NCBI RefSeq assembly: GCF_001677475.2
Contig: NZ_CP015229.1
Direction: 5' to 3' (one strand)
Source: Escherichia coli
GTDB lineage: Bacteria > Pseudomonadota > Gammaproteobacteria > Enterobacterales > Enterobacteriaceae
Length of the DNA stretch: 64,000 nt
The position numbers and the translations under genes were made by a program. A model generated the notes under the pieces. It worked only from the letters and a program-made list of their open reading frames with translations, was not told the DNA's origin and searched no databases. The number at the start of each line of letters is the position of its first letter. Position 1 is the stretch's first letter. Positions 58,063-64,000 of this stretch are shown in pieces.

Positions 58063-59724
58063 ATGTTGGCACAACTGACCATCAGCAACTTTGCTATCGT
58101 TCGTGAGCTTGAGATTGATTTTCATAGCGGCATGACCGTAATAACTGGCGAGACCGGCGCGGGTAAATCTATTGCAATAGATGCCCTCGGTCTTTGTCTC
58201 GGTGGTCGCGCTGAAGCCGACATGGTGCGTACCGGCGCTGCTCGCGCTGACCTGTGCGCCCGTTTTTCTCTGAAAGATACGCCAGCGGCTCTGCGCTGGC
58301 TGGAAGAAAACCAGCTTGAAGACGGGCATGAATGTTTGCTTCGTCGCGTAATCAGCAACGATGGTCGCTCACGAGGTTTTATCAACGGTACAGCTGTTCC
58401 TCTGTCACAACTGCGCGAACTGGGTCAGTTGCTCATTCAGATCCATGGTCAGCACGCTCATCAGTTACTCACCAAACCCGAGCACCAAAAATTCCTGCTT
58501 GATGGCTATGCCAATGAAACCTCTCTACTTCAGGAAATGACCGCACGTTATCAGTTGTGGCATCAAAGCTGCCGTGACCTCGCGCATCATCAACAGTTAA
58601 GTCAGGAACGCGCCGCCCGTGCGGAACTGCTGCAATACCAATTAAAAGAACTTAACGAATTTAATCCGCAGCCCGGAGAGTTTGAGCAAATCGACGAAGA
58701 GTACAAACGTCTGGCGAACAGCGGTCAATTGCTGACCACCAGCCAGAATGCATTGGCATTAATGGCCGACGGTGAAGACGCAAACCTGCAAAGTCAGCTT
58801 TACACGGCTAAACAACTGGTGAGCGAATTGATTGGCATGGACAGCAAACTGTCCGGCGTACTTGATATGCTGGAAGAAGCTACCATCCAGATTGCTGAAG
58901 CCAGCGACGAACTGCGCCACTACTGCGATCGTCTGGATCTCGATCCCAACCGACTGTTTGAACTTGAACAGCGCATCTCAAAACAGATTTCGCTGGCACG
59001 TAAACATCACGTCAGCCCTGAGGCATTACCACAGTATTACCAGTCGTTACTGGAAGAACAGCAGCAACTGGACGATCAGGCCGACTCACAAGAAACGCTC
59101 GCGCTGGCGGTAACGAAACATCATCAGCAGGCACTGGAAACCGCGCGCGCATTACATAAACAACGCCAGCAATATGCAGAAGAACTTGCACAGCTGATCA
59201 CCGACAGTATGCATGCGCTCTCAATGCCGCATGGGCAGTTTACGATCGATGTTAAATTTGACGAGCATCACCTGGGCGCTGACGGTGCCGATCGTATTGA
59301 GTTTCGGGTAACCACCAACCCAGGTCAGCCAATGCAGCCTATTGCCAAAGTCGCATCCGGTGGTGAATTGTCCCGCATCGCATTGGCAATCCAGGTCATC
59401 ACGGCGCGTAAAATGGAAACCCCGGCACTGATTTTTGATGAAGTGGATGTAGGGATTAGCGGTCCAACAGCGGCAGTTGTCGGCAAACTGCTGCGTCAAC
59501 TCGGCGAATCAACTCAGGTGATGTGTGTTACCCACCTGCCACAAGTCGCGGGATGTGGTCATCAACACTATTTTGTCAGCAAAGAAACCGATGGTGCGAT
59601 GACAGAAACACACATGCAATCCCTGGATAAAAAAGCGCGGTTACAAGAGCTGGCGCGCCTGCTTGGTGGCAGTGAAGTCACACGTAATACACTGGCGAAT
59701 GCGAAAGAACTGCTTGCGGCGTAA
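58063..59724 (+). CDS. recN: DNA repair protein RecN (SMC-like)
   Basis: 553 aa; Walker A GETGAGKS and C-terminal signature region. Confidence 0.96.
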
Positions 59725-60278: not shown

Positions 60279-60569
60279 TTATTTATTCGCTGATTTTTCT
60301 GCTCGTTGCCTGCGAAGCTCTTTCGGATCGGCAATGAGAGGACGATAAATCTCCACCCGATCGCCATCATGTACAATATCGCTGAGTTTTGCCGGACGGC
60401 TGTAAATGCCGACTTTGTTTTTAGTTAAATCGATATCGGTACGCAATTCCAGCAAGCCACTGGCGCGAATAGCTTCTTCAACCGTCGCGCCCTCCTGCAG
60501 CGTCACGCGCTGCAGATACTGCTTCTCAGGTAGCGCATAAGCCACCTCAACGGCAATTTTACCTGGCAC
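60279..60569 (-). CDS. ratB: UPF0125 protein RatB (YfjF)
   Basis: 96 aa from GTG at 60567-60569 ([20 protein letters not shown]); the ORF track gives a 124-aa upstream-extended form. Confidence 0.85.
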
Positions 60570-61035
60570 TGTAAACCTCTTTCGCACGAACCGTAAAAGC
60601 CTGGACCATATTAGCCGCCAGTTCTTTAAACACGCGGCCAAAGGCGAGTTCAATCAACTTATTGGTAAACTCAAAATCGAGATGAAACTCGATACGGCAC
60701 GCCTCCTGACTCAGCGGCGTAAACTTCCAGCCACCGATCAATTTCTTGAACGGCCCATCCACCAGATTCATAAGAATACTTTGGTTACTGGTTAACTGGT
60801 TGCGGGTAGTAAACGTTTTGCTGATCCCAGCCTTAGAGACATCTACCGCCGCAGTCATCTGCCCAGGAGTGGACTCCAGAATCCGACTTCCGGTACAACC
60901 CGGCAAAAACTGAGGATAAGACTGAACGTCATTCACTAACTGATACATTTGCTCCGCGCTGTAGGGTACCAGTGCGGTCCGGCTAATCTGAGGCATAACA
61001 ATTTCCATCAACAAAAATCCAACAAATAATATCAT
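60559..61035 (-). CDS. ratA: ribosome association toxin RatA (YfjG), SRPBCC/polyketide-cyclase fold
   Basis: 158-aa ORF; overlaps ratB by 11 nt; start could instead be the internal MPQIS Met. Confidence 0.88.
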
Positions 61036-61166
61036 TTATCCTGCTGTAAAAAAAACGCTATCCCGGCGCTGGGTAACATCGGGTTCATGCTAAGATAGAG
61101 CCTTGTCCCCCGCAGGATTGATATGGGGTGTTTTCGATTTCAGATTACCGATGATTCACGACGCTT

Positions 61167-61649
61167 ATGACGAAGAAAAAAGCACATAAACCTGGTTCAG
61201 CGACCATCGCGCTTAACAAGCGCGCCCGTCACGAATACTTTATCGAAGAAGAGTTCGAAGCGGGACTTGCCCTGCAAGGCTGGGAGGTTAAATCCCTGCG
61301 CGCAGGAAAAGCCAATATCAGCGACAGCTACGTCCTTCTGCGTGACGGAGAGGCATTTCTGTTTGGCGCTAACATCACGCCAATGGCTGTGGCCTCCACG
61401 CATGTGGTGTGCGATCCTACCCGTACCCGCAAGTTACTTCTCAACCAGCGCGAACTGGACTCATTGTACGGTCGCGTCAATCGAGAAGGCTATACCGTAG
61501 TGGCGCTCTCCCTGTACTGGAAAAATGCCTGGTGCAAAGTGAAAATCGGCGTCGCCAAAGGTAAGAAACAGCATGATAAACGTTCAGATATCAAAGAACG
61601 CGAATGGCAGGTGGATAAAGCGCGTATCATGAAAAACGCCCACCGTTAA
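61167..61649 (+). CDS. smpB: SsrA-binding protein SmpB
   Basis: 160 aa from [29 protein letters not shown]. Confidence 0.97.
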
Positions 61650-61819
61650 ACCTGCACTGCAATTATTGACCCGCTCCTCACCGCGCCTCCCTCTCCGGCG
61701 GCGCGAATGCACATCTTATTGGCTATCACATCCGACACAAATGTTGCCATCCCATTGCTTAATCGAATAAAAATCAGGCTACATGGGTGCTAAATCTTTA
61801 ACGATAACGCCATTGAGGC

Positions 61820-61850
61820 TGGTCATGGCACTCATGAATCTGGTATACTT
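61820..61850 (+). promoter_or_regulatory. candidate ssrA promoter (extended -10)
   Basis: TGgTATACT at 61841-61849, 7 to 14 nt upstream of the mature tmRNA 5' end; no good -35. Confidence 0.5.
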
Positions 61851-61863
61851 ACCGTTACACATT

Positions 61864-62226
61864 GGGGCTGATTCTGGATTCGACGGGATTTGCGAAACCC
61901 AAGGTGCATGCCGAGGGGCGGTTGGCCTCGTAAAAAGCCGCAAAAAATAGTCGCAAACGACGAAAACTACGCTTTAGCAGCTTAATAACCTGCTTAGAGC
62001 CCTCTCTCCCTAGCCTCCGCTCTTAGGACGGGGATCAAGAGAGGTCAAACCCAAAAGAGATCGCGTGGAAGCCCTGCCTGGGGTTGAAGCGTTAAAACTT
62101 AATCAGGCTAGTTTGTTAGTGGCGTGTCCGTCCGCAGCTGGCAAGCGAATGTAAAGACTGACTAAGCATGTAGTACCGAGGATGTAGGAATTTCGGACGC
62201 GGGTTCAACTCCCGCCAGCTCCACCA
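61864..62226 (+). ncRNA. ssrA: tmRNA (SsrA), 363 nt, ending CCA
   Basis: 5' GGGGCUGAUUCUGGAUUCGACGGG, tag-coding region ...GCAAACGACGAAAACUACGCUUUAGCAGCUUAA, 3' GGGUUCAACUCCCGCCAGCUCCACCA. Confidence 0.97.
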
Positions 62227-62344
62227 CTTTTGATAGGACTGCAACCGGACAGCGGCAATAAAAACAGCCACTTACGGACACTGACCAGACAGTAAGCGGA
62301 CTTAAAAAAGACAAAAATATACACGCAAAATGCACGTGCATTTC

Positions 62345-62384
62345 AAAAAAGCCTCTGATTGTGAAGTCAGAGGCTTTTCTATTT
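62345..62384 (-). terminator. rho-independent terminator downstream of the phage tfa gene, in the ssrA-prophage junction
   Basis: Hairpin GCCTCTGA-cttcacaa-TCAGAGGC followed by TTTTTTG on the minus strand. Confidence 0.7.
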
Positions 62385-62424
62385 GTAACTAAGAGTAACA
62401 ATTCAACATGACGCAACCTACCAA

Positions 62425-62997
62425 TTACGTAACGTCAAACGCTCTGATTGAACGCAAATCATCCAGATTATTCAGTTGTTCCTTCATCTCGCGCTGGCGT
62501 TCGTGGATTTTAAAGCCCTCCGCCACCATGGCCACCATCATGGCATCGTTCAGCGCAATAAGTTTCTCCCTGGTCAGTATGACGTTGTTATTATCCGCAT
62601 CAGTCCAGAAAAAACCATCCGGAAGCAGTCCGGCCTGCGCTGTTGCAACCACGGGCGCAAGGCGTGACTGCGAGGTTTTTCCGCCATCAAAACGACGGCC
62701 ATCAAACGTGAAAATAAACTCAACGTTTTCCTGACTGTCGCGCCATGCCTCAATTTCCCGCCTTTTGGCATCCTTTGCCGCTGCAATAAGTTCCGGCGTG
62801 ACGGTGAACGGGGCGATTTCGCCCCATTTCCCGCTTTGCAGCTCCTGCCAGACATGCTGGCCTGTCGGGGCCATATCATCCTGTATGGCGGTATACAGGA
62901 CGAACTCCGTTTCACCTTCAAATAACACCTCGCAGTCAACCGCACCATTTTCAAGATAATGCGCGTTTCTGATGCCTTTCACCGCTCTGATTTTCAT
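62425..62997 (-). CDS. tfa: phage tail fibre assembly protein (Tfa-like chaperone)
   Basis: 190-aa ORF starting MKIRAVKGIRNAHYLENGAVDC, resembling lambdoid/K-12 cryptic-prophage Tfa N-termini; AAGGAA RBS; lies 14 nt downstream of the stf stop. Confidence 0.8.
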   Translation of the reverse strand: MKIRAVKGIRNAHYLENGAVDCEVLFEGETEFVLYTAIQDDMAPTGQHVWQELQSGKWGEIAPFTVTPELIAAAKDAKRREIEAWRDSQENVEFIFTFDGRRFDGGKTSQSRLAPVVATAQAGLLPDGFFWTDADNNNVILTREKLIALNDAMMVAMVAEGFKIHERQREMKEQLNNLDDLRSIRAFDVT

Positions 62998-63011
62998 GTC
63001 TTATTTCCTTA

Positions 63012-64000
63012 TTACTCAATGCGTACAAAAAGACCGATATAGCCACGCGTTGTATCGTGACTAATGCGGGTCCCCGAAAGCGCCGTGTAACGACCGGGGA
63101 AGTTGTATTCACCAGCACCGCCAATCACAACCTGCGGTGAGGATGCGTATGTCCCTGTATCGCTAACCCGTGCACTCATAGCCAGAGGGCCAAGACGGGA
63201 ACCCGGCACAATATCACCGAGCCCCAGAGACGCATCTGCACCAAAACTCTCCCCCTGATATGCCGCCATAATCGGCACACCAACGGCCGGGTATTTATAA
63301 TATGAGCCTGAGCCCGCCATCCTGGACAGCAGGTACGCCAGTGAATCTCCGTCGTATACAACTACCCGCGATGACATGTTCCAGCTGTTATCGCTGTCGT
63401 TGTACCGGTACTGCATATAGTGAATACAGTGTTCACCCTGATAATACTGGTTGTAGCACATCAGGGTTTTAAATTTGCGGACTGTGTCGGATTCACTGTT
63501 GGCGTACGGTGACCACATCACATCAATAATGCCGTTAAATTGCGTGGTACCGGTAAGCAGTTGCGAGGAGTCTGTAATACTGACCGCATACCGCCCCGGC
63601 GTGACTTTCTTCAACCACTCAACGAAATCAGACAGCCCCTCAAACGCCAGAGCGTCAGTGCTGGTGAATGCCTGTCCAAACCCATACATCCCGGACAGGG
63701 CCAGCCTGCCCGGTGTGCGGTCACGGATATCACTCTGGGGTTCCATCGTCGCAGCCGCGTTCAGCTCAAGCTCCGTGCGCATGGCTTCAGCCGTGTCATG
63801 CGCCAGTAATGCGCGGCCCTTCTCTGACAGCAGAGACAGTGAGGCATTCCCGTCTGTATTGAAGTACAGAAGATTATCTGCCCGTTGCGTCAGTGCGCTG
63901 ATTGCCGTTAAGACGTCATTAAGCGGTTGTTTGCCTGCCAGCGCGTTTGTGATTGTCGTCGCAAAGTTCGGGTCATTGCCCAGCGCCGCTGCCAGCTCGT
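63012..64000 (-). CDS. stf: phage side tail fibre protein (Stf-like), C-terminal ~329 codons; 5' end beyond window
   Basis: Minus-strand frame open from the window edge (hand translation 63783-63998 has no stop); contains the motif ALAGKQPLNDVLTAISALTQRADNLLYFNTDGNASLSLLSEKGRALLA, similar to the conserved shaft segment of lambda/Rac/e14 Stf; followed by tfa. Confidence 0.8.
   Translation of the reverse strand, partial: ELAAALGNDPNFATTITNALAGKQPLNDVLTAISALTQRADNLLYFNTDGNASLSLLSEKGRALLAHDTAEAMRTELELNAAATMEPQSDIRDRTPGRLALSGMYGFGQAFTSTDALAFEGLSDFVEWLKKVTPGRYAVSITDSSQLLTGTTQFNGIIDVMWSPYANSESDTVRKFKTLMCYNQYYQGEHCIHYMQYRYNDSDNSWNMSSRVVVYDGDSLAYLLSRMAGSGSYYKYPAVGVPIMAAYQGESFGADASLGLGDIVPGSRLGPLAMSARVSDTGTYASSPQVVIGGAGEYNFPGRYTALSGTRISHDTTRGYIGLFVRIE

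What the first reader, a model, noticed from the sequence alone, without database searches (positions are those of the whole stretch)
62328..62384. Perfect 16-bp palindrome beside a bidirectional terminator in the ssrA-prophage junction
AAATGCACGTGCATTT (62328-62343) is a perfect inverted repeat lying between the tmRNA 3' end and the tfa terminator hairpin (GCCTCTGA...TCAGAGGC, 62351-62374). Such a dyad is the size of a dimeric DNA-binding-protein site (repressor, recombination directionality factor or integrase arm site). It could equally be chance in a short AT-rich spacer.
Basis: seen in the sequence. Interest (0 to 1): 0.3.

Follow-up and report, generated by a model that had tools for sequence, protein, structure and literature searches.

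The report
Integrase arm site beside the tmRNA gene
The 16-bp palindrome is real. It lies in the recombination arm that a lambda-like prophage left next to the tmRNA gene, and it is most likely an ordinary integrase "arm-type" binding site, not a regulatory operator.

Summary
Within the window alone the palindrome is not significant: 2 such palindromes observed, 1.2 expected, and the other lies inside recN.

Comparison gives it meaning. Bases 62227-62401 are the tail-fibre-side ("P") arm of the attP of ssrA-integrating lambdoid phages. In free phage LMessi the order is int, P' arm, 35-bp ssrA core, this arm, terminator, tail-fibre genes.

The half-site ATGCAC recurs 11 bp upstream in the window (ATACAC). 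It also occurs as an 11-bp-spaced tandem in the int-proximal arm of prophages whose P arm is identical to the window's. That tandem is 98% conserved across 46 distinct arms, against 68% for the adjacent spacer.

A second, diverged P-arm type carries a different palindrome at the same position (GGAGCCG|CGGCTCC). Its half-site is the tandem motif in the int-proximal arms of several phages of the second integrase class.

The integrases carry an N-terminal arm-binding domain (PF12167).

Only the inner 10 bp (TGCACGYGCA) is invariant; the perfect 16 bp is specific to this lineage.

Verdict: integrase arm-type sites, two direct and one inverted copy. This is a new member of a known kind, of low to moderate interest. 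Binding by Int rather than Xis is inferred.

The parts
61864..62226 (+). ssrA (tmRNA) gene, the integration target. Its 3' end was rebuilt by the phage-borne copy.
   Evidence: ARAGORN; Rfam RF00023, 295.8 bits.
62200..62226 (.). att core. This is the 27-bp uninterrupted identity block shared by ssrA and phage attP (T-arm GCGGG-TTCAACT-CCCGC plus acceptor 3' end). Strand exchange must fall within it.
   Evidence: Alignment of the window with the attP of free phage LMessi and with CP-1639 and PhiR12. The same block sits at the int-proximal junction in tcmA_3 and OkiPb01695.
62227..62346 (.). Phage-derived P arm of attP (the arm on the tail-fibre side), now fused to ssrA.
   Evidence: 85-88% identical next to ssrA in about 500 further E. 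coli genomes and in phages LMessi, CP-1639 and PhiR12. In LMessi it is contiguous with int, the P' arm and the core.
62236..62250 (+). Two GGAC motifs 11 bp apart (62236-62239 and 62247-62250). More GGAC/AGAC copies lie at 62276-62312. They are candidate sites for an accessory protein (Xis or other), unassigned.
   Evidence: Read from the sequence. Conserved in both P-arm types.
62257..62274 (+). IHF-like element AATAAAAACAGCCACTTA: an A-tract followed by an approximate WATCAANNNNTTR.
   Evidence: Conserved between the T1 and T2 arms. This is a consensus resemblance only. The assignment rests on my knowledge of the IHF consensus.
62317..62327 (+). Direct copy 1 of the arm-type motif (ATATACACGCA; hexamer ATACAC at 62319-62324).
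   Evidence: Pattern ATRCACN5ATRCAC gives 1 hit in the window against 0.02 expected. Most related arms have ATATGCACGTG here.
62328..62343 (.). The dyad. It holds direct copy 2 (AAATGCACGTG, hexamer ATGCAC at 62330-62335) and an abutting inverted hexamer (GTGCAT at 62336-62341).
   Evidence: ATGCACG[TC]GCA is invariant in 36 distinct T1 arms. The half-site equals the P'-arm tandem motif.
62347..62378 (.). Bidirectional intrinsic terminator. In the lysogen it ends the pre-tmRNA and tail-fibre transcripts. In the free phage it lies where int read-through transcripts would end, the position of tI in lambda.
   Evidence: fold energy -25.6 kcal/mol for the surrounding 91 nt, z -5.1. Related arms show 19 distinct stems that still pair. 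The tI analogy is inference.
62425..62997 (-). Last phage gene: a tail-fibre-associated DUF4376 protein in the tfa position.
   Evidence: Pfam PF14301, E=3e-19; phrog_1141 'tail fiber protein', E=5.6e-83.

Best explanation
The dyad is part of a cluster of arm-type binding sites for the N-terminal arm-binding domain of the prophage's tyrosine integrase. That integrase belongs to the IntBPP-1 subgroup and its arm-binding domain is PF12167. The cluster lies in the distal part of the P arm of attP. Integration fused this arm to the rebuilt 3' end of ssrA. The arm carries two direct copies of an approximately 11-bp motif (consensus A-A/T-A-T-G-C-A-C-G-T-G) spaced one helical turn apart, at 62317-62327 and 62328-62338. 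A third, inverted hexamer (GTGCAT, 62336-41) abuts the second copy, and that is what makes the palindrome. Two further direct copies sit in the integrase-proximal P' arm at the other end of the prophage, outside the window. By analogy with lambda, integrase bound here through its N-terminal domain would reach the core inside ssrA through its catalytic domain. The intervening IHF-like site would bend the DNA, so that the recombinogenic complex for integration and, with Xis, for excision can assemble. Shown here: the location in an attP arm, the repeat structure on both arms, the conservation, the difference in motif between integrase lineages, and the arm-binding domain in the integrase. Inferred: that Int rather than Xis binds the motif, that the inverted hexamer is occupied, and the role of IHF.
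For: (1) Free phage LMessi has the contiguous order int, P' arm, 35-bp ssrA 3' core, a sequence 88% identical to window 62200-62401, terminator, tail-fibre genes. So the window's spacer is an attP arm. (2) Two prophages have a P arm 100% identical to the window's. They carry ATATGCACGTGAAATACACTTA (tcmA_3) and ATATGTACGTAAAATGCACATA (OkiPb01695) about 60-85 bp from the core in the int-proximal arm. (3) The pattern ATRCACN5ATRCAC occurs once in the window, at the finding (0.02 expected). It occurs once in the 42-kb far half of the tcmA_3 prophage, in the P' arm (0.01 expected). (4) Across 46 distinct P' arms from IMG/VR relatives, the 19-nt tandem is 98.4% conserved. The spacer between it and the core is 68% conserved. 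(5) Eight IMG/VR prophage contigs for which both ends were recovered pair the ATGCAC-type P' arm with the T1 P arm. (6) A second, diverged P-arm type (T2, found in phage LLS) has GGATACGCAAAGGAGCCGCGGCTCC at the same position. Several class B integrase loci (about 69% identical to the class A integrase) have P' tandems AAGGAGCCGTAAAGGAGCCGCAG or AAGGATACGCAAAAGCTACGCGG. So the half-sites of both palindromes are P'-arm repeat motifs, although no single class B phage here shows GGAGCCG on both of its own arms. (7) The bases that complete the dyad (GCA in T1, GCTC in T2) are invariant or nearly so, while the sequence just beyond them varies. (8) The integrases carry Arm-DNA-bind_2, PF12167, at E=5e-21. 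This is the arm-binding domain of the IntBPP-1 subgroup (PMC8138268). (9) L006-type P' arms lack the GGAC repeats but keep the tandem, so the tandem is the constant element of that arm. (10) Pseudomonas phage MR13 has an integrase 38.5% identical and also targets ssrA. It has a 10-11-bp-spaced tandem of another motif (CAGCAAC) in the P' arm and in both orientations in the P arm.
Against: There is no binding data. The window lacks int and the P' arm, so the pairing rests on other genomes with an identical P arm. xis and the int N-terminal domain are adjacent and differ together between lineages, so the comparison cannot tell which protein reads the motif. A second repeat family (GGAC) also occurs on both arms in most lineages and could be the true Int arm site. 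The geometry of the two palindromes differs: the ATGCACG half-sites share their central CG, while the GGAGCCG half-sites abut. That argues against a fixed head-to-head pair of bound domains. Class B integrases with identical N-terminal domains accompany quite different motif centres, so the specificity is loose or only partly understood. LLS's own P' tandem (GGGTACGTGAAAGATACAAG) differs from the GGAGCCG half of its T2 palindrome. The motif pattern was derived after seeing the data.
Confidence: 0.6

Rival explanations
1. The motif and dyad are bound by the excisionase (Xis/RDF, the 69-aa phrog_2917 protein) or another accessory recombination protein, not by the integrase arm-binding domain. 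The integrase arm sites would then be the GGAC repeats.
For: The dyad is in the P arm, where lambda-type Xis sites lie. xis differs between lineages together with the motif just as int does. GGAC repeats at 11-bp spacing occur on both arms in most lineages and are shared by the T1 and T2 arms. A palindrome suits a dimeric winged-helix protein.
Against: The motif is a conserved tandem on the int-proximal P' arm as well. In the lambda paradigm that arm needs only Int and IHF (my knowledge). L006- and tcmA_3-type P' arms keep the tandem but have lost the GGAC repeats. The five copies in total (2 in P', 3 in P) equal the five arm-type sites I recall for lambda attP; that figure was not checked here.
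Confidence: 0.2
2. The palindrome acts as an RNA (or DNA) hairpin. It could be a second, backup terminator for the tail-fibre or late transcript on the minus strand. It could also be a structure in the pre-tmRNA 3' trailer or in int read-through RNA, in the manner of lambda sib.
For: On the minus strand the tandem folds into ATGCACGTG...TGCGTGTAT followed by ATTTTTGTCTTTTTT, which the terminator scan flags. T2 shows one double, symmetric change that keeps pairing (GGAGCCGCGGCTCC to GGAGTCGCGACTCC; 3 distinct arms, 5 contigs). Position 3/14 of the T1 dyad is A-T, G-C or A.C. A different palindrome sits at the same place in T2.
Against: The hairpin itself is weak (-4.5 kcal/mol, z -0.7). The sequence is conserved rather than merely paired. 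The true terminator next to it has 19 distinct stems among the same 36 arms, while the dyad core has essentially one. The commonest T1 form has a mismatch that is a G.U pair only on the minus strand. The commonest T2 deviations pair only on the plus strand, so no single strand fits both. The same motif in the P' arm cannot form a hairpin.
Confidence: 0.07
3. The perfect 16-bp symmetry is chance, or a by-product with no function of its own. CACGTG inside the motif is self-complementary, and an AT-rich flank happens to extend it.
For: About 1.2 such palindromes are expected per window, and a second lies in recN. The outer three pairs are not conserved, and only 3 of 36 distinct T1 arms are perfect 16-mers.
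Against: The GCA that extends the symmetry beyond CACGTG is invariant in all 36 T1 arms. T2 has an unrelated 12-14-bp palindrome at the same position. Sequence just downstream varies freely.
Confidence: 0.1
4. The dyad is an operator for a phage or host transcriptional repressor that controls a nearby promoter.
For: Its size and symmetry fit a dimeric helix-turn-helix site. That is all.
Against: There is no further copy in the window. The immunity region of a prophage with the identical arm has none either: in L005 the only tandem copy is at the att arm. No promoter-like site is adjacent. The dyad sits between two convergent transcript ends. T2 arms carry a different palindrome, so a host factor is unlikely.
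Confidence: 0.03

Closest known systems
Arm-type Int sites of phage lambda attP (P1, P2, P'1-P'3) with IHF sites, and the tI/sib terminator beyond the P arm
   Same: The gene order is the same: tail/b-region, terminator, P arm, core, P' arm, int, xis. Short repeats distinct from the core lie on both arms within about 150 bp of the crossover. Tandem copies in P' are one helical turn apart. An IHF-like site lies between the P' repeats and the core. The integrase has a separate N-terminal arm-binding domain. The lambda details are from my knowledge.
   Different: The integrase subgroup differs (IntBPP-1, PF12167, not the lambda-type domain). The motif differs (ATGCACGTG against the lambda consensus). 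The target is the ssrA T-arm and 3' end, not an intergenic attB. One P-arm copy is an abutting inverted hexamer, which gives a palindrome. No biochemistry exists for this system.
IntBPP-1 subgroup of tyrosine recombinases (Bordetella BPP-1, Stx2a phage, Gifsy-2 integrases; Smyshlyaev et al. 2021, PMC8138268)
   Same: The PF12167/DUF3596 arm-binding domain is found in the integrases of prophages that share this junction.
   Different: That paper classifies the proteins. Apart from three term searches in it, I did not check it for arm-site descriptions, and my other literature searches found none for this subgroup. The sites proposed here are predictions.
ssrA-integrating lambdoid phages CP-1639, PhiR12, LMessi, LLS and an Stx2g prophage
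   Same: They share the core and a homologous P arm. LLS is annotated with 'tmRNA pseudogene / attP'.
   Different: Their records annotate at most the core. The arm repeats and the dyad are not annotated. Most carry AAATGCACGTGCACTT (T1) or AGGAGCCGCGGCTCC (T2), not the perfect window form.
Pseudomonas phage MR13 attP
   Same: Its integrase is 38.5% identical and it also targets the 3' end of ssrA. Tandem repeats 10-11 bp apart lie in the P' arm, and in both orientations in the P arm.
   Different: The motif is unrelated (CAGCAAC/GTTGCTG). The inverted copies are 27-35 bp apart, not abutting. The terminator lies between the core and the repeats.

Membership tests
Arm-type sites of a heterobivalent tyrosine integrase (lambda Int paradigm) | The cognate integrase has an N-terminal arm-binding domain in addition to its core-binding and catalytic domains. 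| tested here: met
   PF12167 at E=4.9e-21 plus PF00589 in the Int of the tcmA_3 prophage, whose P arm is 100% identical to the window's. The same holds in LMessi. The window itself does not contain int.
Arm-type sites of a heterobivalent tyrosine integrase (lambda Int paradigm) | The sites lie in an attP-derived arm, outside the core but within about 150 bp of it. | tested here: met
   The dyad ends 117 bp after the CCA end of ssrA. The spacer is colinear with the attP of free phage LMessi.
Arm-type sites of a heterobivalent tyrosine integrase (lambda Int paradigm) | The same motif is repeated on both arms of attP and is unlike the core-type sequence. | tested here: met
   P arm: ATACAC, ATGCAC and GTGCAT. 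P' arm of tcmA_3, OkiPb01695, LMessi and 46 IMG/VR arms: an ATGCAC-type tandem. The core is GCGGGTTCAACTCCCGC.
Arm-type sites of a heterobivalent tyrosine integrase (lambda Int paradigm) | The sites are conserved above their neighbouring sequence, and the motif differs between integrase lineages. | tested here: met
   P' tandem 98.4% against spacer 68%. Class A Int goes with ATGCAC. Class B Int goes with AAAG-N3-4-CGY motifs, including GGAGCCG, the half-site of the T2 palindrome. MR13 goes with CAGCAAC. The link to int cannot be separated from the link to xis.
Arm-type sites of a heterobivalent tyrosine integrase (lambda Int paradigm) | The Int N-terminal domain physically binds the sites, and they are required for recombination. 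| not testable with these tools
   This needs EMSA or footprinting and recombination assays.
Arm-type sites of a heterobivalent tyrosine integrase (lambda Int paradigm) | DNA-bending protein (IHF) sites lie between the arm sites and the core. | tested here: inconclusive
   TTCAAYNNNTTA is conserved in P' arms (88% against 68% for the spacer). AATAAAAACAGCCACTTA is in the P arm (62257-62274). These are consensus resemblances only.
Xis/RDF binding sites | The sites are confined to one arm, the P arm in lambda-like systems. | tested here: not met
   The motif is a conserved tandem on the int-proximal P' arm too. Some elements, such as Tn916, have Xis sites at both ends (my knowledge), so this lowers the reading but does not exclude it.
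Repressor operator | Several copies overlap promoters in the immunity or early region. | tested here: not met
   No other copy in the window with up to 3 mismatches. The only tandem copy in L005 is at the att arm. No promoter-like site is adjacent.
Intrinsic terminator / structured RNA | A stable stem followed by a U-tract, with pairing kept through compensatory changes. | tested here: not met
   Dyad hairpin -4.5 kcal/mol, z -0.7. The sequence is conserved rather than covarying, whereas the adjacent true terminator has 19 distinct stems. Rfam finds only tmRNA. A minus-strand hairpin with a T-run formed by the two direct copies exists and is not excluded as a secondary role.

The most novel reading that the evidence does not exclude
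The palindromic form itself is selected. In this integrase family the outermost P-arm site would be a dedicated two-way or head-to-head arm site, or the site of a separate dimeric protein such as the RDF. It has been kept through complete sequence replacement between lineages (ATGCAC|GTGCAT against GGAGCCG|CGGCTCC), with one symmetric double substitution in T2. Such a site might let one locus serve both the integrative and the excisive complexes, a job I recall lambda dividing between P1 and P2.
Probability: 0.25. Interest if true: 0.45.

Novelty: new member of a known kind. Interest (0 to 1): 0.28.

Why it matters
It gives a concrete, testable map of the att arms for a widespread group of ssrA-integrating lambdoid phages, some of them Shiga-toxin converting. 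Their IntBPP-1-type integrases appear not to have characterised arm sites. The map covers the core, an IHF-like site, GGAC repeats, an 11-bp-spaced arm motif and the dyad. It explains a conspicuous palindrome next to an essential RNA gene as recombination machinery and not gene regulation. It also helps to delimit such prophages and their tandem arrays. It does not change any concept.

Tried and rejected
(1) I searched the window for further copies of the dyad with up to 3 mismatches and found none, so an operator array is rejected.

(2) Palindrome statistics on the window alone are not significant, so the window cannot settle the question.

(3) Rfam at a permissive threshold finds only tmRNA. 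The weak hits are terminator look-alikes.

(4) I tried to separate Int from Xis by comparing the motif with each protein's lineage. This failed because xis and the int N-terminal domain are adjacent and differ together. Class B proteins that are identical accompany varied motif centres.

(5) Some loci appeared to combine a class A P' arm with a T2 P arm (for example L010). I first took these as evidence against Int-specific arm sites. OkiPb01695 shows that at least this form is a tandem junction between a prophage and a chromosomal T2 relic next to ypjA. Contigs with both ends recovered pair class A with T1. L130, which combines a class B P' arm with a T1 arm, is probably the same kind of junction but was not resolved.

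(6) Literature searches for arm sites of ssrA phages, for CP-1639 and for PF12167 found nothing on these sites, only the integrase classification.

(7) No E. coli complete genome covers the prophage part of the window at high identity. The best full-length match is 95%, and the chromosomal part alone matches at about 98.5%. So the prophage's own far end could not be read. I used two prophages with a 100% identical P arm instead.

(8) A sequence search of solved structures found only catalytic and core-binding domain relatives (Tn1549 and lambda Int). Nothing matched the arm-binding domain.

Full report
OBSERVATION. The sequence is as described. AAATGCACGTGCATTT occupies 62328-62343 and cannot be extended. 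The tmRNA gene is 61864-62226 on the + strand, with tag ANDENYALAA. The hairpin AAAAGCCTCTGA/TCAGAGGCTTTT spans 62347-62378, flanked by A6 and T4, so it can terminate in both directions. The ORF at 62425-62997 on the - strand is a DUF4376 / PHROG 'tail fiber protein' in the tfa position, preceded by a tail-fibre gene. Within the window the palindrome is not statistically remarkable. Two perfect 16-bp palindromes are present and 1.19 are expected. The other (58167-58182) lies in the Walker-A region of recN and is a chance example. No second copy with up to 3 mismatches exists in the window.

WHAT THE SPACER IS. Bases 62200-62401 are 85-88% identical to the sequence that follows ssrA in about 500 other E. 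coli genomes (O157, O145, O111 and others) and in phages CP-1639, PhiR12 and LMessi. A further 509 genomes match window 62200-62430 at 99% or more. LMessi is a free phage. Its genome reads int, about 125 bp, a 35-bp copy of the ssrA 3' end, the homologue of the window spacer, a terminator, then tail-fibre genes. The spacer is therefore the tail-fibre-side arm of attP, which I call the P arm. It was joined to ssrA by recombination within the 27-bp identity block 62200-62226, which covers the T-arm and the acceptor end. The gene order matches lambda (tail/b region, tI, P arm, core, P' arm, int, xis), as I recall it. The window ends 1.6 kb into the prophage, so int and the P' arm are not in it.

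THE MOTIF RECURS ON BOTH ARMS. In LMessi the P arm has ATATGCACGTGAAATGCACGTGCAC and the P' arm has ATATGCACTTAAAATGCACTTGAGG. Each holds two copies of ATGCAC 11 bp apart. In the window the upstream copy is ATATACACGCA (62317-62327). Two prophages have a P arm 100% identical to the window's. One is in strain tcmA_3. The other is an Stx2g prophage in strain OkiPb01695. Their int-proximal arms carry ATATGCACGTGAAATACACTTA and ATATGTACGTAAAATGCACATA, about 60-85 bp from the core. The pattern ATRCACN5ATRCAC occurs once in the window (0.02 expected). It occurs once in the 42-kb far part of the tcmA_3 prophage region, in the P' arm (0.01 expected). The pattern was derived after seeing the data, but independent sequences bear it out. 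I fetched 80 IMG/VR loci encoding integrases 87-94% identical. Among them, 46 distinct P' arms keep the 19-nt tandem at 98.4% column identity. The spacer between the tandem and the core is 68% identical. A TTCAAYNNNTTA element inside that spacer, which resembles an IHF site, is 88% identical. Eight IMG/VR prophage contigs for which both ends were recovered pair this P' arm with the T1 P arm.

A SECOND ARM TYPE WITH ANOTHER PALINDROME. A pattern scan for the core plus a conserved P-arm word recovered 98 distinct arms, of two homologous types.

- Type T1 (36 arms, including the window's) has ATGCACG[TC]GCA invariant. The 16-mer is AAATGCACGTGCACTT in 26 arms. It is a perfect palindrome only in the window form (2 arms) and in AAGTGCACGTGCACTT (1 arm).
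- Type T2 (62 arms, including phage LLS, which is annotated with attP and a tmRNA pseudogene) has GGATACGCAAAGGAGCCGCGGCTCC at the same position. That is a direct copy followed by a different palindrome.

In both types the bases that complete the symmetry (GCA in T1, GCTC in T2) are conserved, while the sequence beyond them varies. One T2 lineage has the symmetric double change GGAGTCGCGACTCC. Loci encoding LLS-type integrases (class B, 69% identical to class A) have P' tandems that vary by lineage. Examples are AAGGAGCCGTAAAGGAGCCGCAG, AAGGATACGCAAAAGCTACGCGG and AAGATACGCAAAAGCGCCGCAA. So each palindrome's half-site is a motif that occurs as a P'-arm tandem within the matching integrase class. 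LLS's own P' tandem, however, is GGGTACGTGAAAGATACAAG and not GGAGCCG. All variants fit a loose skeleton, AAA-R-N-R-N-M-C-G-Y. Class A integrases always accompany the ATGCAC form.

Loci that seemed to combine a class A P' arm with a T2 arm are explained by OkiPb01695. There the prophage's int, P' arm and core are followed by a chromosomal T2 relic next to ypjA, so this is a tandem junction and not an attP.

A distant relative, Pseudomonas phage MR13, has an integrase 38.5% identical and also targets ssrA. It has 10-11-bp-spaced tandems of CAGCAAC in the P' arm, and in both orientations in the P arm.

THE PROTEIN. The integrases of tcmA_3 and LMessi carry Arm-DNA-bind_2 (PF12167, E about 1e-20) ahead of the SAM-like and catalytic domains. 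This domain defines the IntBPP-1 subgroup, whose members are described as putative integrases (PMC8138268). A 69-aa excisionase (phrog_2917) overlaps the start of int.

MOST LIKELY MECHANISM (confidence 0.6). The dyad is direct copy 2 of the integrase arm-type motif plus an abutting inverted hexamer, and copy 1 lies one helical turn upstream. Together with the two P' copies, these sites would bind the integrase N-terminal domains. The catalytic domains would act on the core in ssrA across DNA bent at the IHF-like sites, as in lambda. In the lysogen the sites matter for excision. They have no regulatory role for ssrA or the tail-fibre gene. The adjacent bidirectional terminator ends the pre-tmRNA and tail-fibre transcripts. 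In the free phage it sits where int read-through would end. The anatomy, the conservation and the lineage-specific motifs are shown. Who binds the sites is inferred.

RIVALS.

- Xis/RDF binding (0.2). This cannot be separated by lineage comparison, because xis and the int N-terminal domain are linked. GGAC repeats, also on both arms in most lineages, could then be the Int sites. However, the L006- and tcmA_3-type P' arms have lost those repeats and keep the tandem. The lambda-type P' arm also needs no Xis (my knowledge).
- RNA hairpin or backup minus-strand terminator (0.07). The scan flags ATGCACGTG...TGCGTGTAT plus a T-run on the minus strand, and T2 shows one compensatory double change. But the dyad hairpin is weak (-4.5 kcal/mol, z -0.7). 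Its sequence is conserved rather than covarying, whereas the neighbouring terminator has 19 different stems in the same arms. The P' tandem also cannot fold.
- Chance or by-product symmetry (0.1). This fits the unconserved outer three pairs, but not the invariant GCA/GCTC or the second palindrome in T2.
- Repressor operator (0.03). There are no copies outside the att arms.

COMPARISON AND NOVELTY. Functionally this is the lambda attP paradigm. By membership it is a predicted set of arm sites for an IntBPP-1-type integrase that targets ssrA. I found no description of these sites in the searchable literature. The search covers open-access papers only, and the CP-1639 paper itself was not available to read. 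The one unusual point is that the distal P-arm site is palindromic in two lineages with unrelated sequences. The two palindromes differ in geometry (a shared central CG in one, abutting half-sites in the other). That weakens a strict model of two domains bound head to head.

VERDICT. It is a new member of a known kind, with interest about 0.28.

Noticed in passing
window 58167-58182: A second perfect 16-bp palindrome, ATCTATTGCAATAGAT, lies inside the 553-aa recN ORF (58063-59724), in the [14 protein letters not shown] (Walker A) region. It serves as a chance control for the finding.
   Followed up: yes
window 62236-62312: GGAC/AGAC repeats. Two are exactly 11 bp apart (62236 and 62247), and a cluster GGACACTGACCAGACAGTAAGCGGAC...AGAC follows. 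They are conserved in both P-arm types and are present upstream of the P' tandem in most lineages, but not all. They could be Xis or other accessory sites, or an alternative Int arm motif.
   Followed up: partly
window 62319-62341, minus strand: The two direct motif copies can pair on the minus strand (ATGCACGTG/TGCGTGTAT, 9 pairs with G.U). ATTTTTGTCTTTTTT follows, giving a terminator-like element in tandem with the main tail-fibre terminator. In LMessi the equivalent stem is a perfect 8 bp.
   Followed up: partly
L288 23220-23400 (E. coli OkiPb01695, NZ_AP042570.1): After the int-proximal junction of an Stx2g prophage at ssrA comes a truncated core (…CCCGCCAGCC). A complete T2-type P arm follows, with its palindrome and terminator, directly next to ypjA. 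This is a relic att arm of an older element. The same relic sequence is the commonest T2 variant in IMG/VR contigs.
   Followed up: partly
L001 1-20000 (E. coli tcmA_3, NZ_CP059835.1): In this strain a P2-like prophage (P2-family capsid, 'phage repressor protein CI', its own integrase) sits between ssrA and the lambdoid prophage that shares the window's P arm. ssrA is thus a site of tandem polylysogeny.
   Followed up: no
L087 3480-3620 (phage Ayreon, MF807953.1): Ayreon uses a different integrase, and its att region is full of TGTACA repeats. It still carries a T2 P-arm fragment with the palindrome extended to GGGAGCCGCGGCTCCC. This is either a mosaic relic or a sign that the segment has a use independent of this integrase.
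   Followed up: no
L005 17917-18840 and L006-L009: Some prophages of this group carry a cargo gene (DUF4760, 307 aa) inserted between int and the P' arm repeats. Its stop codon lies about 20 bp from the tandem, and the insertion replaces the GGAC repeats.
   Followed up: no
L290 2640-2860 (Pseudomonas phage MR13, MT104473.1): This is the attP of a distant relative that targets Pseudomonas ssrA. The CAGCAAC/GTTGCTG motif forms a tandem in the P' arm. In the P arm it forms two tandems in opposite orientations (2793-2812 and 2839-2857), after a terminator-like hairpin that directly follows the CCA end.
   Followed up: partly
window 60500-64000 compared with E. coli genomes: No complete E. coli genome in the collection matches the prophage part at high identity. 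The best full-length match is 95%, and the tail-fibre gene is the divergent part. The chromosomal part matches at about 98.5%.
   Followed up: no
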